Source: an uncultured beta proteobacterium (GTDB lineage: Bacteria; Pseudomonadota; Gammaproteobacteria; Burkholderiales; SG8-41). From it: a DNA stretch of 64,000 nucleotides. The notes beneath the pieces are model-generated. The model searched no databases. It had not been told where the DNA came from and saw nothing but the letters and a program-made list of their open reading frames with translations. Location: assembly GCA_963778865.1 (NCBI GenBank), contig CAVZWF010000005.1:144233-208232 (forward strand). The letters run 5' to 3'. Shown in pieces: positions 1,883-21,004 of this stretch; the first letter of the stretch is position 1; each line of letters begins with the position of its first letter. Made by a program: the position numbers and the translations under genes.

Positions 1883-1984
1883 GTGATGAGTGAATGAGTG
1901 ATCGAGTGACGGGCGAAATCGTAACGCACGCGAGCTCTAGGCTTGTAATCGCCATTACCCATCACTCATTACTCATTACACGTC
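1883..1984. repeat. Intercistronic inverted repeat with heptamer-periodic arms (GTGATGA GTGAATGA GTGATCGA GTGAC ... CATCAC TCATTAC TCATTAC AC)
   Basis: Left arm 1883..1910 is imperfectly complementary to right arm about 1958..1984. Lies between the arnA-decarboxylase stop (1988) and the arnD start (1876). Confidence 0.6.
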
Positions 1985-3096: not shown

Positions 3097-4041
3097 TTGG
3101 GGTGAGGGGATAGCTGAGGTGACTTCTATGGGTTTATCGCCGAAGCGCGCCAGAAAATCCGCCGCGCTGACGGGTTGTCCGTCGAGATCCATTTCAAGGA
3201 CGCGCAGTGTAACGCCATCCGCGCAGGTTGCATAACACGCGCCGCGCTCGACGTAGAGCTGCGGCCGCGGCGCACCCGGGCGCGGCCGCGCTTTCCACGC
3301 GCGTGCGCAGTATACGCAATGTCCTGCCGCCGATCTCGGTAAAGGCGCCGGGGTAGGGCGGCGCCACGCCGCGCACCAGATTGTGTATGCGCGCCGCCGG
3401 CAGGCGCCAGTCGATGCGCCCGTCTTCCGGCTTGCGTCCGCCGTAATATCCGCCCTGCGTGAGGTCCTGCGGCCTGCGCGGCGCATTGCCATTGATGAGC
3501 GCGGGCAGGCTGCGGTCGAGCACGCGCGCCGCCGCCGCGGTGACTTTGCGAAACACGTCCGCCGCGGTGTCGTCGGGCAGTATGGGGACCGCCTCCTGAT
3601 CCACGATATCGCCGGCATCCGGCTTGGCCGTCATGTAATGCAGCGTGGCGCCGGTTTCGCGTCTCGCCGTTGATCACCGCCCAGTTCACCGGCACGCGCC
3701 CGCGGTATTTCGGCAGCAGCGAGCCGTGCATGTTGAGCGCGCCGCGTTTCGGCACGGCGAGCAGCGGCGGCTTCAGCATGTTGCGGTAATAGAACGAAAA
3801 CAGGAAGTCCGGCGCCAGCGCGCGGATGCGATCGACGGTATCCGGCGCATTCGGATCGTCCGGCGCAATCGCCGGCAGGCCGCGGCTGGCGGCGAGCTCG
3901 CTTGACGCTGTCGAACCAGATCTTCTCGGCGGGGTTGTCGTCATGCGTGACGACCAGCGACACGTCGACGCCGTGGTTCAGCAATACCGAGAGACATTGG
4001 ACGCCGACGTTGTGATAGGCGAAGACGACGGCGGAGGTCAT
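3082..4041 (-). CDS. arnA: UDP-4-amino-4-deoxy-L-arabinose formyltransferase (ArnA N-terminal-domain homologue as a separate gene), at least three frameshifts
   Basis: Pieces in ORFs 3631..4164 ([17 protein letters not shown]), 3126..3944 ([14 protein letters not shown]...[25 protein letters not shown]), 3194..3634 and 3082..3618. Formyltransferase HxSLLPxxRG motif. Confidence 0.8.
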
Positions 4042-4043
4042 GG

Positions 4044-4204
4044 GTGAAACGTGAATCGTGAAACGTGAATCGTGAGTCGTGAGTCGAAAATGTGAAGGCA
4101 GCGAGTATTTTGTGGTGCCGGCGCAACCGCGCCAGCTCTTCGATTTTGACGACTCACGATTCACGATTCACCATTCACGGATTTATTCACCATTCACCAT
4201 TCAC
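4044..4204. repeat. Large inverted repeat built from tandem heptamers (6 x GTGA[A/G][A/T]C, about 64-bp spacer, then 6-7 x complementary [G/C]A[T/C]TCAC)
   Basis: GTGAAAC GTGAATC GTGAAAC GTGAATC GTGAGTC GTGAGTC at 4044..4085. GACTCAC GATTCAC GATTCAC CATTCAC ...CATTCAC CATTCAC at 4151..4204. Fills the arnC-to-formyltransferase spacer. Confidence 0.75.
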
Positions 4205-5155
4205 GCATCTGTCTTCTCAAGCACCGCCTGCATCAGATACCGCGGCCGGCTGCGCACCTGCTGGTAGATGCGGCCGATGTACTCGCCGAGCAGGCCCGAG
4301 ACCGAACAGGACGAGGCCCGTCAGAAAAAACTGCAGGATGTCGCGGTCCCACAGCGCCAGCAGCCCTTCGCGCATGCTGTCCGCCGCGATCCAGCGCTGC
4401 ACGATGACGCCGATGTATACCAGCACGGACACCACGGCGACGAACATGCCGAGCAGCGAAAACACCTGCAACGGCACGATGGAAAAGCCGGTCACGAGGT
4501 CGAAGTTGAGCCGGATCAGGCTGTAGAGCGAATATTTCGATTCGCCGGCGGCGCGTTCCTCGTGCGCGACCTCGACTTCGGTCGGGTTGCCCGCGTAGGT
4601 GTAGGCGAGCGCGGGAATGAAGGTATTGATCTCGCTGCTCGATTTGATGGCATCGACGATGCGCCGGTCGTACGCGCGCAGCATGCAGCCCTGATCGGTC
4701 ATGCGTATGCGGGTGATGCGCTCGCGTATCCAGTTCATGGTGCGCGAGGCATAGCGGCGGAACGCGGAATCCTGACGCTGCAGGCGCACGGTTCCGACGT
4801 AATCGTGACCGCTGGTCCATCGCCGCCAGCAGCTTGCCGATTTCCTCGGGCGGATTCTGCAGGTCGGCGTCGAGCGTGACGATGCGGCTGCCGCGGCAAT
4901 GCTCGAAGCCCGCCATGATCGCCATGTGCTGGCCGAAGTTGCCGTTGAACAGAATCACGCGCGTGACGTCGGGCCGCGCTCGAATTGTTCGCGCAACAGC
5001 GCCGCCGAGCGGTCGCGGCTGCCGTCGTTGATGAACACCACTTCGTAGCTCGCGCCCAGCGCGTCGAGCGCGGGATACAGGCGCGCGAACAGCAGCGGCA
5101 GCGCCTGCTCTTCGTTGTAAACCGGAATGATCACGGAAACGGTCGGTGCGGTCAT
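4201..5155 (-). CDS. arnC: Undecaprenyl-phosphate 4-deoxy-4-formamido-L-arabinose transferase (GT2), at least three frameshifts
   Basis: ORFs 4955..5155 ([11 protein letters not shown]), 4233..4958 ([20 protein letters not shown]...[13 protein letters not shown]) and 4217..4789. Final frame reads [30 protein letters not shown] with stop 4201..4203. Confidence 0.85.
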
Positions 5156-5230
5156 GATTTGGTTATCGATTTCATGCGCATGGTAACCGATGCACCGTGC
5201 ACGCGTCGACTGCGCGGGCAGCGTGTCATG

Positions 5231-5620: not shown

Positions 5621-7247
5621 TTAGCGCGCCACGGTGCGCACGAACACGCGCTCGGTATCGCGCGCAATCAACTGCATGGGAAGTTGCGCCTGCTGCAATT
5701 CAGCGAATACTTCAAGGCTCATGACCGCCAGCGCGTAATCGTCGCTGCGCCACCGGCGCTCGAATTCGGCGAGCGTCGGCACCCATAAGCGCGGGTTCCT
5801 GCTGCGAGGCCGTAGGCCATTTCGTCCTGGTAATCGACCAGCGTCACCGTGCGTTTGATATAAAACGGCAGCGTCTGTTCGTAGGTGCGCACGCTGTAAA
5901 TCGGCGCATCGGGCTTCAGGTAAGGTTTGAGTTCCTGCGCCAGATGATACGTCGAATGCGCGGGCGACAGCGCGTCTTCGCTCGCCACCAGCAATTGCGT
6001 CGTTGCGAGCCCCGCGAAGGCGCACGCGATGATCGCGGGCCTGACCTGCTGCCGCGCCACGGCGAAGACCATGGCGGCCAGCGTGCCCGCGAGCAACGTC
6101 GCGCCCGCGGCATAGAGCCAGGGAATTTGCGCGAGATACAGCGCGGCCGGAATTCCCTCCGAGGCGAGCCTGACCGTATAGGGCGCTGCGATCAACCCGG
6201 CCACCGCCAGCAGCGGCGACCGGCGCAAGTTGCAGCGCCAGCGCGCGTCCGCTGATGGTCGTCAGGCGCAGCCCGATGACGAGCGCCAGCGCGGGAAAGA
6301 CCGGCAGGATGTAGGAGGGCAGCTTGGAGCCGGATAGCGGAAAAGAACGCGAAAATAAAGCCGGCCCACAACAGCGTGAACAGCAGGGGATCGAAGTCGC
6401 GGCCTCCGGCGAGCCGCTTGCGCGCATTGATTAGCGCATCGATGAGCGTGACGAGCCACGGCAGGATGCCCGCCAGCAGGATCGGGAATGAAAAAATACC
6501 ACGGCTGGTAGCGCTGATGAATGGTCGAGGTGTAGCGCTGCAGGTGTTCGTGCACGAAAAAGAACCACGCGAACTCGGGATTTTCGAGCGATACCGCGAT
6601 GAACCACGGCGCCGTGATCGCCAGAAACAGGAGGCCGCACGATGACGAGATGCAATTTGCGCAGCAGCGAGAAATCGCGCTTGACCAGCATGTAGAGCAC
6701 CACGACCGCGCCCGGCAGGACGATGCCGATCAGGCCTTTGCTCAATACCGCCAGCGCGCAACCCGCGGCGGCGACGTGCATCCAGCGCCGGTTGGTGCGG
6801 GCATCCGCGCGCGGATCGAGTCCGAGCAGGATGCCCGCAAGCGCCACCGTCAGGAAAAATGCGAGCCCCATGTCGAGCGTGAGGATGTGGGCGAGCGCCG
6901 AGTAGAGCACGCTGCTGCGCGAGCACCAGCGCGGTATACAGGCCGGCGGTCGCGCCGTAGAGCCGCGCGCCGACAAAATACATCAGCAGCACGCCGAGCA
7001 ATCCGGTCAGCGCCGGCCACAGGCGCGCCGTCCAGTGGTGTTCGCCGAACACGCGGTAGGCGGCGGCGGTCGCCCAGTATTGCAGCGGCGGCTTCTCGAA
7101 ATACTTGATGCCGTTCAGGCGCGGCGTGAGCCAGTCGCCGCTTTGCGCCATGTAGCGCGGAATTTCGGAGTAGCGGCCTTCGTCGGAGAGCGACAGTTTG
7201 CGGTATTCGAGATTGCCGCACCAGATGACGACGGCGACAAGCAGCAT
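5621..7247 (-). CDS. arnT: 4-amino-4-deoxy-L-arabinose lipid A transferase (GT83/PMT-like), multiple frameshifts
   Basis: Pieces in ORFs 6192..7247 (DEGRYSEIPRYMAQSGDWLTPRLNGIKYFEKPPLQYW), 6431..6976, 6262..6555, 5719..6228 and 5621..6427. Confidence 0.8.
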
Positions 7248-7409: not shown

Positions 7410-8441
7410 TCAAACACGCTGTCTTCGTTCGCGCTCACCGTGAGCGATGCGCCGTGCGCGAGGCCGCGGATAATGCTTGAGCGTCGAGCGCGTGTACGCG
7501 GGGTCGTAGTGCATTTCCAGCAGTTCGCGCACCAGCGCATCCCACGCGCCGTTGGCGGCGAGCGCTTTCCATGCCGCGATCTGCGCCTGTCCGTAATGCG
7601 CGGCGAGACAATCGAGCTGCGTGCCGAGCGCCGCGGCGTCGGCGACAAAATGGCGTATTCGTCTCTTCAGCATCTCGACGCGCAGCTCGATCGACGTCTC
7701 CAGCCTGACGCACGCGCTGTCCCACATCGCCGCGATCAGCGTCTGCGGCACGCGCAGGTTGCCGATCTTCTTGCTTTCCGCTTCGACGAATACGGGCTGC
7801 GCGCGATCGAATCCGCGCAAGGCCGACCACACCAGGCTTTCGAACATTTTCTGCGCGGGTTGCGGCTCGTCGGGCAGATTGCCGAGCACCGATCCGCGAT
7901 GCGCGGCCAGCGCTTCGAGATCGAGCACCTGCGCGCCCTGTTGCGCAAGCGCGCGCAACAGCCGGCTTTTGCCCGAGCCGGTGAGCCCGCATATGACGCG
8001 CCAGTCGTAGCGCTGCGGCAGGACTTCGAGGTCGTCGATGACCGCGCGCCGGTAGGTTTTGTAACCGCCGTCGAGCCGCGCCGCGCGCCAGCCGACCTGC
8101 TGCAGCACGTGCGTGAGCGCGGCGCTGCGGCTGCCGCCGCGCCAGCAGTAGACGAGCGGACGCCAGGTGCGCGGGCGCTGCGCGAAGGTGGCGTCGAGGT
8201 GGCTGGCGATATTGCGGCTGACGAGCGCCGCGCCGAGTTTCTTGGCGTCGAACGCGGACACCTGCTTGTAGATGGTGCCGACGCGCGCGCGCTCGGCGTC
8301 GTTCAGCACCGGGCAGTTGATCGCGCCGGGAATATGATCTTCGGCAAATTCGGATTCGGAGCGCGTGTCGATAATCTCGTCAAACTCGGCGAGTTGTGCT
8401 ACGGTGACCAGGTCGCCACTGCACGCGAATGCAGTACCCAA
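7410..8441 (-). CDS. selU: tRNA 2-selenouridine synthase (rhodanese + P-loop); C-terminal end uncertain (probable frameshift near 7470)
   Basis: ORF 7410..8441 has the CWRGGSRS rhodanese loop and the GLTGSGKS P-loop. The tail plausibly continues in ORF 7247..7648 (GLAHGASLTVS...). Confidence 0.85.
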   Translation of the reverse strand: MGTAFACSGDLVTVAQLAEFDEIIDTRSESEFAEDHIPGAINCPVLNDAERARVGTIYKQVSAFDAKKLGAALVSRNIASHLDATFAQRPRTWRPLVYCWRGGSRSAALTHVLQQVGWRAARLDGGYKTYRRAVIDDLEVLPQRYDWRVICGLTGSGKSRLLRALAQQGAQVLDLEALAAHRGSVLGNLPDEPQPAQKMFESLVWSALRGFDRAQPVFVEAESKKIGNLRVPQTLIAAMWDSACVRLETSIELRVEMLKRRIRHFVADAAALGTQLDCLAAHYGQAQIAAWKALAANGAWDALVRELLEMHYDPAYTRSTLKHYPRPRARRIAHGERERRQRV

Positions 8442-8470
8442 ATTAAGCCCCGATGAACAATCCGATGGAC

Positions 8471-9512
8471 ATGCAGAAAATCAAGCTGACCGCATTCTCA
8501 CACGGCGGCGGATGAGGCTGCAAACTACCGCCAGCGTTGCTGGGGGAATTGCTGTCGAAGATACCGCTCGCGCGCGCGTATCCGGATCTGCTCGTCGGCA
8601 CCGAGTCGAGCGACGATGCGGCGGTCTATCGCATCAACGACGAGCAGGCGATCGTCGCGACCACGGATTTTTTTCTGCCGATCGTCGACGATCCGTACGA
8701 TTTCGGCCGCATCGCCGCGACCAATGCGATTTCCGACATTTACGCGATGGGCGCGCAGCCGCTGTTCGCGCTGGCGTTGGTCGGCATGCCGGTCGGCAAG
8801 CTGCCGGTCGAGGCGATGCAGCAGATACTCGCGGGCGGGCACGCCGTGTGCGAGGCCGCGGGCATTCCGATTGCCGGCGGGCATTCGATCGACAATCCCG
8901 AGCCGATCTACGGGCTCGTCGCGCTCGGTCTCGTGCATCCGTCGCGCATCAAGCGCAACGACCGCGCGCAGGCCGGCGACGTGCTGATCCTGGGCAAGGC
9001 GCTGGGCGTCGGCATCCTGAGCGCGGCGCTGAAAAAAGGCGAGTTGCGCGACAAGGCCTACCAGCAAATGCTCGAGACGACGACGCAGCTCAATACCGCC
9101 GGCATCGCGCTCGCCGAACTCGCCGGCGTGCACGCGATGACCGACGTGACCGGCTTCGGCCTGCTCGGGCATCTGCACGAAATCTGCCGCGGCTCGAAAT
9201 TGCACGCGGACATCCGATTTCGACTCGTTGCCGATACTCTCGGCGGCGAAGCACCTCGCGCAGGACGGCTACGCGACCGGCGCGTCGGACCGCAACTGGG
9301 CGAGCGTCGAGCCGCACGTGACGTTGCCGCCGGGCATGCCGGACTGGCAGAAGAAGCTGCTGACCGATCCGCAGACGAGCGGCGGCCTGCTGGTCGCGTG
9401 CGATCGCGCGAGCGCGCCGCGCGTGCTGGAAATCTTCAGGCAGCAGGGTTTCAAATATGCGTGCGAGATCGGCGCGCTCGCGGCCGGGCCCGCGACGATA
9501 GGCGTGAGTTGA
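8471..9512 (+). CDS. selD: Selenide, water dikinase (selenophosphate synthetase) with in-frame TGA (putative Sec) at codon 15; one frameshift near 9221
   Basis: ATG 8471 gives MQKIKLTAFSHGGG-TGA-GCKLPPALLGELL, in frame with ORF 8537..9613. The C-terminus continues in ORF 9228..9512. The TGA (8513..8515) aligns with Cys17 of the E. coli SHGAGCGCK motif and the Sec of Haemophilus-type SelD. Confidence 0.85.
8520..8552 (+). promoter_or_regulatory. Candidate bacterial SECIS hairpin downstream of the selD TGA
   Basis: GCAA-ACUA-CCGCCAGC-GUU-GCUGGGGG-AA-UUGC. Lower 4-bp stem and an upper 8-bp stem with one mismatch. The apical loop lies about 23 nt after the UGA. Confidence 0.45.
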
Positions 9513-9621
9513 CGGAACCGGTTACAGCTGCGTGTTTCGCACCCCGCTTGTTTTTTCTGATTTTGCGTCGCACGTGCGAGGTGCACTCAAGAATAATGCA
9601 ATTTACTTGCTGATTTGTAAT

Positions 9622-20928: not shown

Positions 20929-21004
20929 GAGTGAGGAGTAAGGCGAGAGGATGAGGGGTAAGGGCTCTAAATCCATCTCACCCCTCACTCCTCACACCTC
21001 ACCC
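20929..21004. repeat. Intercistronic inverted repeat with heptamer-periodic purine arms (GTGAGGA GTAAGGC GAGAGGA TGAGGGG TAAGGG ... CATCTCA CCCCTCA CTCCTCA CACCTCA CCC)
   Basis: Seen directly between the moaA stop (20999..21001) and the fdhD start (20925). Arms are roughly two-thirds complementary. Confidence 0.5.

What the first reader, a model, noticed from the sequence alone, without database searches (positions are those of the whole stretch)
4044..4204. Large intercistronic inverted repeat whose arms are tandem GTGANNC heptamers
Six in-phase heptamers (GTGAAAC GTGAATC GTGAAAC GTGAATC GTGAGTC GTGAGTC, 4044..4085) face six to seven complementary heptamers (GACTCAC GATTCAC GATTCAC CATTCAC ... 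CATTCAC CATTCAC, 4151..4204). The arms are separated by an unrelated spacer of about 64 bp.

The element exactly fills the gap between the arnC stop (4201) and the formyltransferase start (4041), so it is transcribed within the arn mRNA and could fold into a stem of about 40 bp.

It generates the spurious HDSRFTIHDSRFT ORFs on both strands. Heptamer periodicity inside the arms is not a property of ordinary REP hairpins. It suggests expansion by slippage, or recognition by a repeat-reading protein.
Basis: seen in the sequence. Interest (0 to 1): 0.65.

Follow-up and report, generated by a model that had tools for sequence, protein, structure and literature searches.

The report
Heptamer-repeat hairpin at an operon junction
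The gap between two genes of a lipid A-modification (arn) operon is filled by a real inverted repeat whose arms are tandem 7-base units that gain and lose copies by slippage; similar elements have been described in Xanthomonas and Geobacter, and their function is still unknown.

Summary
Six GTGANNC units (4044-4085) face seven complementary units (4151-4204) across a 65-nt spacer. The arnC stop codon (4203-4201) lies in the outermost unit of one arm. The formyltransferase start (4041-4039) lies 2 nt beyond the other arm.

It is not a one-off. The window holds two more such elements (1883-1981; 20931-21004). Related uncultured Betaproteobacteria carry them at the same three gene junctions, with different units. 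Other relatives have an empty site, usually an ATGA or GTGA stop/start overlap.

Unit number is polymorphic. Three assemblies identical over 10.8 kb differ only by two units.

Nearly all units fit GTRA+NNN, in register with the upstream stop codon.

The best reading is a slippage-driven heptanucleotide-repeat hairpin that grows at a stop/start junction and is probably co-transcribed with the operon. I found no sign of selection on the mRNA strand, no terminator and no Rfam match. A MITE-like origin is not excluded.

The kind is already described: paired GGGAATC repeats in Xanthomonas, paired tandem-repeat sites in Geobacter, and the hmw heptamer hairpin in Haemophilus. This is a new member, of moderate interest.

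The parts
4149..4206 (-). Arm A, the 5' arm on the coding (minus) strand. On that strand it reads GTGAATG GTGAATG GTGAATA [AATCC] GTGAATG GTGAATC GTGAATC GTGAGTC. The outermost unit contains the arnC stop codon.
4201..4203 (-). arnC stop codon TGA, inside unit 4198-4204.
   Evidence: Reading frame reconstructed from the sequence. ArnC C-terminus LEKTDA* aligned with relatives.
4086..4150 (.). Spacer or core of 65 nt, with a small inner hairpin GGCGC-AACC-GCGCC at 4120-4133. It is unique: no second copy in the window or in 1.78 Mb of related loci.
4044..4085 (-). Arm B, the 3' arm on the coding strand: six NNNTCAC units (GACTCAC GACTCAC GATTCAC GTTTCAC GATTCAC GTTTCAC), ending 2 nt before the formyltransferase ATG. 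It aligns with the (CGTTCAC)n arm of L081-L083.
4039..4041 (-). Start codon ATG of the ArnA-type formyltransferase gene (N-terminus [14 protein letters not shown]). No Shine-Dalgarno-like sequence precedes it.
4204..5160 (-). arnC (undecaprenyl-phosphate 4-deoxy-4-formamido-L-arabinose transferase). It is broken by single-base insertions in this assembly and intact in relatives. The upstream end is approximate.
3100..4038 (-). Formyltransferase gene (ArnA N-terminal domain homologue; Formyl_trans_N/C in relatives). It is frameshifted in this assembly. The downstream end is approximate.
1883..1981 (-). Second element of the same class (E1), between the ArnA-type dehydrogenase gene and arnD. On the coding strand it reads GTAATGA GTAATGA GTGATGG GTAATGG ... 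CGTCACT CGATCACT CATTCACT CATCACC.
20931..21004 (-). Third element (E3), between moaA and fdhD. The units are GGGTGAG-type. The moaA stop TGA (21001-20999) lies in the first unit, and the fdhD ATG is at 20925-20923.

Best explanation
The element is one member of a lineage-wide class of hypervariable hairpins with heptanucleotide-repeat arms. These hairpins sit at gene ends, here at an operon junction that was ancestrally a stop/start overlap.

Shown:
- The arms are tandem 7-nt units that change in number by replication slippage.
- The unit is in register with the upstream stop codon.
- The element occupies the whole distance from stop to start.
- Close relatives have either an empty, overlapping junction or an element with other units at the same place.

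Inferred:
- A short stem or inverted repeat at the junction grew outward. Units such as GTGA, ATGA or TRATG plus a few bases were duplicated independently on each arm.
- Such duplications survive at these sites because they keep a stop for the upstream gene and a start for the downstream gene.
- The element is co-transcribed in the arn mRNA, where it would form an imperfect stem of about 45-60 bp that holds the arnC stop and the formyltransferase start together at its base.
- Its likely effect is modulatory rather than essential: a double-stranded RNA target for RNase III-type processing and/or a change in translational coupling, tunable by unit number.
For: Real and non-random.

A class, not a one-off:
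- Two more elements occur in the window.
- Period-7 arrays number 11 in 237 kb of the window, L001-L010 and L011, against 1 in 1.0 Mb of more distant ArnC loci.
- Eight of 39 inverted repeats in the clade have period-7 arms, against 0 of 283 elsewhere.

Slippage:
- The only difference in 10,824 nt among three assemblies is a 14-nt indel in an arm.
- A second case shows one extra unit at 99.66% identity.

Empty sites in close relatives:
- arnC/formyltransferase: L086 (92% ArnC identity, GACGAATGACTTCC), L087 and L007.
- dehydrogenase/arnD: L096, L093 and L089.
- moaA/fdhD: L165 and L166 (95% FdhD identity).
- Sources.

Same site, different units across relatives.

Units tied to the junction:
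- 18 of 21 unit families contain TGA, against 15% expected; none contains TAG.
- 73 of 81 units begin with GTGA or GTAA.
- The stop codon lies in the first unit in E2, E3, L168 and L171.
- In L004 and L081 the 5' array starts with the native K-D-E codons seen in the empty L086.

Internal pattern of E2: the inner GTGAGTC units are mirrored in both arms, while the outer units differ (GTGAATG against GTGAAAC). This fits independent outward growth of each arm.

Geometry: stop and start lie at the base of the predicted stem in 12 of 16 junction elements.

Experimental precedent: in H. influenzae hmw, a transcribed heptamer repeat forms a long hairpin that RNase III cuts, and unit-number change needs transcription, the hairpin and RNase III.
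Against: - How the inverted (complementary) arm first arises is not explained by slippage alone.
- The same unit families recur at different loci and in different genomes: GTRATGR at three junctions, ATCCTGA in L011, L088 and Geobacter, GTGAATC in Halomonas, other metagenomes and phages. This could mean dispersal or a recognised motif rather than local seeding.
- L011 has two copies sharing a 180-nt core.
- Short direct repeats flank several elements, including 8 bp in L087.
- There is no evidence of selection on the mRNA strand.
- In L004 and L081 the arnC stop lies inside the element, and in L003 arnC reads through the whole element, so the stop-at-the-base geometry is not universal.
- Transcription and processing are untested.
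Confidence: 0.55

Rival explanations
1. It is a MITE-like or REP-like non-autonomous mobile element whose terminal inverted repeats are made of tandem sub-repeats. It inserted at the TGA of the stop/start overlap with a short target duplication, and its arms then drifted by slippage.
For: - L011 carries three elements with identical AGGATTC/GAATCCT arms. Two share about 180 nt of core, and the 42-nt inner palindrome recurs alone at a fourth junction.
- CACAGAG-type arms with 9-10-nt units occur at different loci in L001, L002, L087, L021 and L051.
- Direct repeats flank elements: TGA (E2), TAATGA (E1), TAATGG (L168), TGAAA (L081), TGAAGCTC (L087).
- Presence or absence is clean among close relatives.
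- The same GTGAATC architecture occurs in unrelated contigs.
Against: - The cores of E2, E1 and E3 are unique in the window plus 1.78 Mb of relatives.
- The three elements in the window have three different units.
- Flanking repeats vary from 3 to 8 nt, so there is no fixed target duplication. They are also what any surviving insertion in an overlap must have in order to keep both stop and start.
- The 5' arrays are continuous with native codons.
- No transposase is linked to the elements.
Confidence: 0.25
2. It is an array of binding sites for a protein that reads GTRA at 7-nt spacing on single-stranded RNA or DNA, or on a cruciform. Candidates are a global regulator, a nucleoid protein or an oligomeric RNA-binding protein. 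The hairpin or paired arrangement would be the functional unit.
For: - Four positions are nearly invariant (G .99, T .93, R, A .99) while three vary, across loci and species.
- Similar units recur across phyla: NN+GAATC in this window, in Xanthomonas (GGGAATC) and in L011/Geobacter (CTGAATC).
- The authors of the Geobacter genome paper proposed global-regulator or IHF/HU sites for their paired tandem repeats.
Against: - No candidate protein was identified.
- The register for the logo was chosen on G-N-R-A, so the result is partly circular.
- Unit number is polymorphic between near-identical genomes, and close relatives do without the element.
- A 7-bp spacing does not keep sites on one face of duplex DNA.
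- Conservation of TGA but not TAG is explained more simply by the stop codon.
Confidence: 0.12
3. It is a transcription terminator or attenuator inside the operon, or a known structured RNA.
For: It is a very stable hairpin between two genes. One related element lies between convergent genes, where a bidirectional terminator would be expected (L001 15638-15693).
Against: - No U-tract follows the stem on either strand, and the terminator scan finds nothing at the element.
- Rfam gives no match at the gathering score or at E<=1.
- The downstream genes belong to the same pathway and are contiguous in all relatives.
Confidence: 0.05

Closest known systems
Paired GGGAATC heptameric repeats of Xanthomonas campestris and X. 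axonopodis (Rehm et al. 2015, PMC4692102)
   Same: - Tandem heptamers of 2 to 26 units, about 90% intergenic.
- They lie close to the 3' end of the upstream ORF (28 nt on average).
- 70-75 cases per genome are convergent pairs on opposite strands, that is, inverted repeats.
- Four or five unit positions are conserved and the rest vary.
- Lengths are not conserved between related species.
- The unit differs by one base (GGGAATC against GTGAATC).
   Different: - The Xanthomonas unit has a G-tract, and a G-quadruplex role was proposed. GTGANNC has no G-tract.
- Xanthomonas has one genome-wide unit family. The three elements in this window have three different units.
- A link to stop/start overlaps was not reported there.
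Paired tandem-repeat sites of Geobacter metallireducens, classes 1-3 (Aklujkar et al. 2009, PMC2700814)
   Same: - Pairs of sites on opposite strands at variable distance, each made of 3-5 tandem units of 7-9 nt.
- Class 3 is MTYCTGA x5, with one pair between proB and proA, that is, between two genes of one operon.
- The unit contains TGA.
- ATCCTGA is the unit of the L011 and L088 elements found here.
   Different: - They were defined as multicopy families matched by BLAST within one genome. The core and arms of E2 have no second copy in the data held.
- They were interpreted as binding sites for global regulators, without tests.
Haemophilus influenzae hmw1A 5'-UTR (ATCTTTC)n hairpin (Rapun-Araiz et al. 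2025, PMC12721329)
   Same: - A transcribed heptamer repeat forms one arm of a long RNA hairpin.
- Unit number is polymorphic and tunes expression.
- RNase III cuts the stem.
- Transcription and the hairpin are needed for changes in unit number.
   Different: - It lies in a 5'-UTR, not between cistrons.
- Only the left arm is repetitive; the right arm is a G-rich tract.
- It serves phase variation of an adhesin in a host-adapted pathogen.
- Nothing has been tested experimentally for the element studied here.
REP / REPIN elements mobilised by RAYT transposases, and bacterial MITEs
   Same: They are intergenic, hairpin-forming, often sit just after stop codons, and are present or absent between relatives.
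   Different: REPs share one sequence in tens to hundreds of copies and carry a GTAG or CGTC tag. MITEs have fixed ends and fixed target duplications. The arms here are locus-specific tandem arrays with none of these features, apart from the L011 family.
Direct heptamer arrays: cyanobacterial STRR sequences and TAACTGA repeats of Beggiatoaceae (MacGregor 2015, PMC4679880); heptanucleotide long SSRs in Burkholderia, Xanthomonas and cyanobacteria (Mrazek et al. 2007, as cited in PMC4679880)
   Same: Period 7, intergenic, often abutting a start codon, units containing TGA, and an origin by slippage was proposed.
   Different: They are mostly direct arrays without a complementary partner: one inverted case among 170 sets in the Beggiatoa-like genome.

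Membership tests
Paired heptanucleotide SSRs (Xanthomonas type) | Tandem array of at least two 7-nt units | tested here: met
   6 and 7 units; TRF period 7
Paired heptanucleotide SSRs (Xanthomonas type) | Two arrays close together in convergent orientation on opposite strands | tested here: met
   31-nt arms, 94% complementary, 65-nt spacer
Paired heptanucleotide SSRs (Xanthomonas type) | Intergenic, next to the 3' end of the upstream ORF | tested here: met
   The arnC stop lies inside the outermost unit
Paired heptanucleotide SSRs (Xanthomonas type) | G-tract unit (GGGANTN) able to form a G-quadruplex | tested here: not met
   The units are GTGAATC, GTGAGTC, GTGAAAC and GTGAATG, with no run of three G
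Paired heptanucleotide SSRs (Xanthomonas type) | One unit family in about a hundred or more sites per genome | tested here: inconclusive
   Only 64 kb of a contig of at least 440 kb is held. It contains three elements with three different units.
Geobacter paired tandem-repeat sites | Multicopy family recognisable by nucleotide BLAST within the genome | tested here: not met
   E2 matches only itself in the window and in 1.78 Mb of relatives. The whole genome was not available.
REP / REPIN | The same 20-40-nt palindrome repeated many times | tested here: not met
   No second copy
REP / REPIN | GTAG or CGTC tetranucleotide tag at one end | tested here: not met
   The arms begin with GTGA and end with TCAC. 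No GTAG or CGTC tag lies at either end.
REP / REPIN | RAYT (TnpA-REP) gene in the genome | not tested
   The genome is not available, and the window ORFs were not screened for Y1 transposases.
MITE | Terminal inverted repeats | tested here: met
   The arms themselves
MITE | Target-site duplication of fixed length | tested here: inconclusive
   TGA flanks E2. Other elements have flanking repeats of 3-8 nt. Keeping both stop and start would produce the same pattern.
MITE | Several copies with a shared internal sequence | tested here: not met
   Not met for E2, E1 and E3. Met for the L011 family in another genome.
Intrinsic terminator | GC-rich stem followed by a U-tract | tested here: not met
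   No site at the element. On the coding strand the stem is followed by CCATGACCTCC.
Any Rfam family | Covariance-model match | tested here: not met
   No match at the gathering score in the window or at E<=1 in 3950-4300
hmw-type SSR RNA hairpin | Long hairpin that includes the transcribed repeats | tested here: met
   Predicted only: -81.6 kcal/mol, z -6.9 on the coding strand
hmw-type SSR RNA hairpin | RNase III cleavage, and expression dependent on unit number | not testable with these tools
   Needs RNA end mapping and reporter assays

The most novel reading that the evidence does not exclude
The hairpins could be evolvable coupling devices. The stem places the upstream stop codon and the downstream start codon, which has no Shine-Dalgarno sequence, side by side. 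A ribosome terminating on arnC would melt the base of the stem and re-initiate across 160 nt, a bacterial counterpart of ribosome shunting. Slippage in the arms would then tune the expression ratio of neighbouring cistrons, alone or together with RNase III cleavage. The units are stop/start overlap motifs (GTGA, ATGA, TRATG), which would make the operon junction itself the seed of the device.
Probability: 0.12. Interest if true: 0.7.

Novelty: new member of a known kind. Interest (0 to 1): 0.45.

Why it matters
Paired heptamer repeats have been reported in a few genomes, but only the Haemophilus hmw case has been studied experimentally.

This locus adds comparative facts that make the question testable:
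- The elements sit where stop and start codons once overlapped.
- Their unit is in register with the stop codon.
- Unit number is the fastest-changing character between near-identical genomes.
- Close relatives provide natural empty-site controls.

If the stems affect coupling or processing, they would be a simple, mutable way of adjusting gene ratios inside operons. If they do not, they are a clear example of neutral repeat growth in one of the few places where a 7-nt duplication is harmless.

In practice they create spurious ORFs and false extensions of real genes in annotation.

Tried and rejected
- Rfam at the gathering score and at E<=1: nothing.
- tRNA and tmRNA scan: none.
- Promoter and terminator scan: nothing at the element.
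- BLAST of the cores and full elements of E2, E1 and E3 against the window and all loci: only self-matches, so no evidence that E2 is dispersed.
- Strand test for an RNA-level function in 18 elements: 69 G-U pairs of 798 on the coding strand against 98 of 855 on the non-coding strand, and the non-coding strand is more stable in 11 of 18. No support for mRNA-specific selection.
- Covariation analysis was not possible. Orthologous elements do not align, apart from 33 nt of arm B with L081-L083.
- Looking up the source contig through the SelU ORF: not on record. A later search showed that the source contig is 440 kb, but only the window can be read.
- Mrazek et al. 2007 is not held, so it is cited only through PMC4679880.
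- A literature search for the bare motif GTGAATC gave only primers.
- A search with the peptide DSRFTIH x6, a proxy for GATTCAC arrays: only 15 called proteins. Such arrays exist in Halomonas and other metagenomes, but ORF calls are a poor proxy for them.
- Ideas considered and dropped because only some units fit or the arrangement is wrong: GANTC methylation sites, parS half-sites, CsrA GGA sites, GNRA loops and the IS608 TTAC target.
- Burkholderia leaf-nodule symbiont pseudogenes as the cause of the frameshifts: rejected in favour of assembly error.

Full report
OBSERVATION

The sequence is as described. On the + strand, six units lie in phase at 4044-4085: GTGAAAC, GTGAATC, GTGAAAC, GTGAATC, GTGAGTC, GTGAGTC. 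Seven complementary units lie at 4151-4204: GACTCAC, GATTCAC, GATTCAC, CATTCAC, then TATTCAC, CATTCAC, CATTCAC. A 5-nt interruption (GGATT, 4179-4183) splits this second arm. A 65-nt spacer separates the arms.

- The repeat finder reports 31-nt arms that are 94% complementary.
- TRF reports period 7 for both arms.
- A three-unit pattern matches 7 times against 0.00 expected in shuffles.
- Period 7 is the only period between 5 and 14 with arrays in the whole window.
- Predicted folds are far more stable than shuffled controls. RNA of the coding strand gives -81.6 kcal/mol (z -6.9). RNA of the other strand gives -87.2 (z -8.2). DNA gives -50.2 (z -7.9).

GENE CONTEXT

The genes are on the minus strand. 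In order they are arnT, arnE/F, arnC, the element, an ArnA-type formyltransferase gene, an ArnA-type dehydrogenase gene, a second element, arnD and a peroxiredoxin gene. I established this by synteny with intact relatives whose genes carry the expected Pfam domains.

The peptide TTHDSRFTIH does appear in spurious ORFs on both strands.

Almost every gene in the window looks frameshifted. Against L081, the differences are mostly single-base insertions at arbitrary positions, about 1%. The same genes are intact in relatives. I therefore read the frameshifts as assembly error in an uncorrected long-read contig, not as pseudogenes.

IT IS A CLASS, NOT A ONE-OFF

The window has two more inverted repeats with heptamer arms.
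- E1 (1883-1981) lies between the dehydrogenase gene and arnD.
- E3 (20931-21004) lies between moaA and fdhD.

The nearest relatives by ArnC are unclassified Betaproteobacteria MAGs at 84-94% identity, not Burkholderia.

- Period-7 arrays number 11 in 237 kb of the window, L001-L010 and L011, against 1 in 1.0 Mb of more distant ArnC loci. No other period is enriched.
- In an independent scan for inverted repeats, 8 of 39 in the clade have period-7 arms, against 0 of 283 elsewhere.
- Some relatives have the same architecture with units of 8, 9 or 10 nt: GAGTGATT, AACACAGAG, ACACAGATAA.

THE SAME JUNCTIONS IN RELATIVES

arnC / formyltransferase, 99 loci:
- Most have an ATGA or GTGA overlap.
- Close relatives L086 (92% identity), L087 and L007 are empty.
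- L004, L081-L084, L008, L009, L011, L001-L003 and the window are filled, each with its own units.

Dehydrogenase / arnD, 46 loci: the same pattern holds.

moaA / fdhD:
- L165 and L166 (95% FdhD identity) are empty.
- L167 carries TGAGGCG units.
- L168-L170 carry GTAATGG/GTGATGG units.
- The window carries GGGTGAG units.

E2 does not align with any relative, except that 33 nt of arm B align with the (CGTTCAC)n arm of L081-L083. E1 is orthologous to the L004 element: they share the flank and similar units.

SLIPPAGE IS SHOWN DIRECTLY

- L081, L082 and L083 come from three different assemblies. They are identical over 10,824 nt except for one 14-nt gap, which is two units in an arm of the arnC/formyltransferase element.
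- L169 has one more CACCCAT unit than L168, at 99.66% identity over 7 kb.
- A family of related phage contigs carries 3, 4 or 5 GTGAATC units at one site.

REGULARITIES OF THE UNITS

- Eighteen of 21 consensus units contain TGA on one strand, against 15% expected from composition. None contains TAG.
- When 81 units of the window's clade are written in the sense of the 5' arm, 73 begin with GTGA or GTAA. Position 5 is never C. The register was chosen on G-N-R-A, so this result is partly circular.
- About a third of the units are GTRATGR, which is the TGATG/TAATG stop/start overlap. Others contain ATGA or GTGA.
- In E2, E3, L168 and an unrelated contig (L171), the upstream stop codon is the TGA or TAA of the first unit.
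- In L004 and L081 the 5' array begins with the K-D-E codons that end arnC in the empty relative L086.

Taken together, this points to units derived from the junction itself. Such sites are among the few places where a 7-nt duplication destroys no reading frame.

Inside E2, the inner GTGAGTC units are mirrored in both arms, while the outer units differ (GTGAATG against GTGAAAC/GTGAATC). That pattern is what independent outward growth of each arm from an older paired stem would give.

WHAT IT DOES

This part is inference.

Points consistent with a role for a stem in the mRNA:
- The element lies inside an operon whose genes are contiguous in all relatives, so co-transcription is likely.
- A stem of more than 40 bp is a natural RNase III substrate.
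- In 12 of 16 junction elements the predicted stem starts within a few nucleotides of the stop and ends within 0-13 nt of the start. None of the downstream starts has a Shine-Dalgarno-like sequence.
- An experimental precedent exists. In H. influenzae hmw1A a transcribed heptamer repeat forms a long hairpin that RNase III processes, and transcription, the hairpin and RNase III are all needed for the repeat to change length.

Points against a selected mRNA structure:
- The non-coding strand folds as well or better, and G-U pairs are not enriched on the coding strand.
- Close relatives lack the element.
- In L004 and L081 the arnC stop lies inside the element, and in L003 arnC reads through the whole element and keeps its ATGA overlap.
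- There is no terminator signature and no Rfam match.

RIVAL: A MOBILE ELEMENT

For:
- L011 has three elements with identical arms. Two share a 180-nt core, and the 42-nt inner palindrome occurs alone at a fourth junction.
- CACAGAG-type arms recur in several genomes.
- Short direct repeats flank many elements, up to 8 bp in L087.
- The GTGAATC architecture recurs in unrelated organisms and phages.

Against:
- The E2 core is unique in all the data held.
- Units differ between the three elements of one genome.
- Flanking repeats vary in length, and they are in any case required to keep both stop and start.

I cannot exclude this reading without the whole genome. I give it about one chance in four.

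COMPARISON WITH WHAT IS KNOWN

- Rehm et al. 2015 described 186 GGGAATC arrays in X. campestris. Seventy cases are convergent pairs. About 90% of arrays are intergenic and they lie on average 28 nt from the upstream ORF.
- Aklujkar et al. 2009 described paired sites on opposite strands built of tandem 7-9-nt units in G. metallireducens. These include MTYCTGA x5 between proB and proA. ATCCTGA is the unit of L011.
- Mrazek et al. 2007, as cited in PMC4679880, found heptanucleotide repeats to be the commonest long SSR class, with Burkholderia, Xanthomonas and cyanobacteria richest.
- MacGregor 2015 described direct TAACTGA arrays abutting start codons.

The element meets the structural definition of the Xanthomonas and Geobacter pairs. 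It does not meet the G-tract criterion or, in the data held, the multicopy criterion. It fails the REP tests and is inconclusive as a MITE.

VERDICT

The feature is real, and the slippage reading is supported. It is a new member of a kind that has been described but is poorly understood.

New here are the link to former stop/start overlaps, the register with the stop codon, and natural empty-site and copy-number variants. Interest is moderate.

Noticed in passing
window 1-64000 (examples at 6917, 6639, 6487, 4813, 4298, 3662, 2616, 552): Nearly every gene is broken by frameshifts. Against the intact relative L081, the cause is mostly single-base insertions at arbitrary positions, about 1%, and not in homopolymers. 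This looks like an uncorrected long-read assembly rather than pseudogenes. Unit boundaries inside the repeats may carry such errors too.
   Followed up: partly
window 1883-1981: A second heptamer-armed inverted repeat lies between the ArnA-type dehydrogenase gene and arnD (GTAATGA/GTGATGG units). It is orthologous to the element in L004 and flanked by the direct repeat TAATGA.
   Followed up: yes
window 20931-21004: A third heptamer-armed inverted repeat lies between moaA and fdhD (GGGTGAG units). The conserved C-terminal GG of MoaA and its stop form the first unit. The stop-free 3' arm led a gene caller to extend FdhD by 17 residues (287 aa against 270 aa, P0121).
   Followed up: yes
L011 4586-4625, 5662-5703, 6940-6980: A 42-nt REP-like palindrome (CTCTTTTCGTGCAGTTGCAAGCA.CTGCACGAAAAGAG) sits at three junctions of the arn operon in this MAG. 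At two of them it is flanked by AGGATTC/GAATCCT heptamer arms, and at the third it stands alone.
   Followed up: partly
L087 6520-6642; L002 8542-8666; L001 2749-2852; L021 17062-17134; L051 17058-17126; L020 1039-1102 and 4905-5014; L028 19944-20053; L050 13837-13931; L114 1907-1972: These inverted repeats have arms made of tandem 8-10-nt units (CACAGAGAA, ACACAGATAA, GAGACGCA, CACGAAGRR, GAACGCAGAT). They occur in several Betaproteobacteria MAGs and resemble Geobacter class 2 (TCTCCGTS). The L087 copy is flanked by an 8-bp direct repeat, TGAAGCTC.
   Followed up: partly
L003 10549-10645 (also L089); L004 798-850; L081 3299-3360: Repeat arms are translated as C-terminal extensions of ArnC. 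In L003 the whole 96-nt element is read in frame and the ATGA overlap with the next gene is kept. In L004 and L081 the array encodes KDEGGRMKAEG... This explains why ArnC lengths range from 314 to 328 aa among close relatives.
   Followed up: partly
L171 3001-3170; L172 3140-3202; L183 and L189 (phage contigs); L184; L188: The same GTGAATC/GATTCAC unit occurs in unrelated sequences. It forms an inverted pair between a histidine kinase gene and the next gene, with the stop in the first unit (L171, GC 52%). It forms a perfect array of at least 9 units at a contig end in Halomonas (L172). It forms an inverted pair in one phage family, and it lies next to TTCTCTGTG arrays in L184. The units GT-, GG- and CT-GAATC (this window, Xanthomonas, L011/Geobacter) share GAATC. 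I have no explanation for this.
   Followed up: partly
window 7410-9613: A tRNA 2-selenouridine synthase-like ORF (7410-8441, minus) lies next to a selD-like gene (8537-9613, plus; AIRS domains in relatives). The neighbourhood at 14-30 kb is rich in formate dehydrogenase and molybdopterin genes. This is ordinary gene content, noted only for orientation.
   Followed up: no
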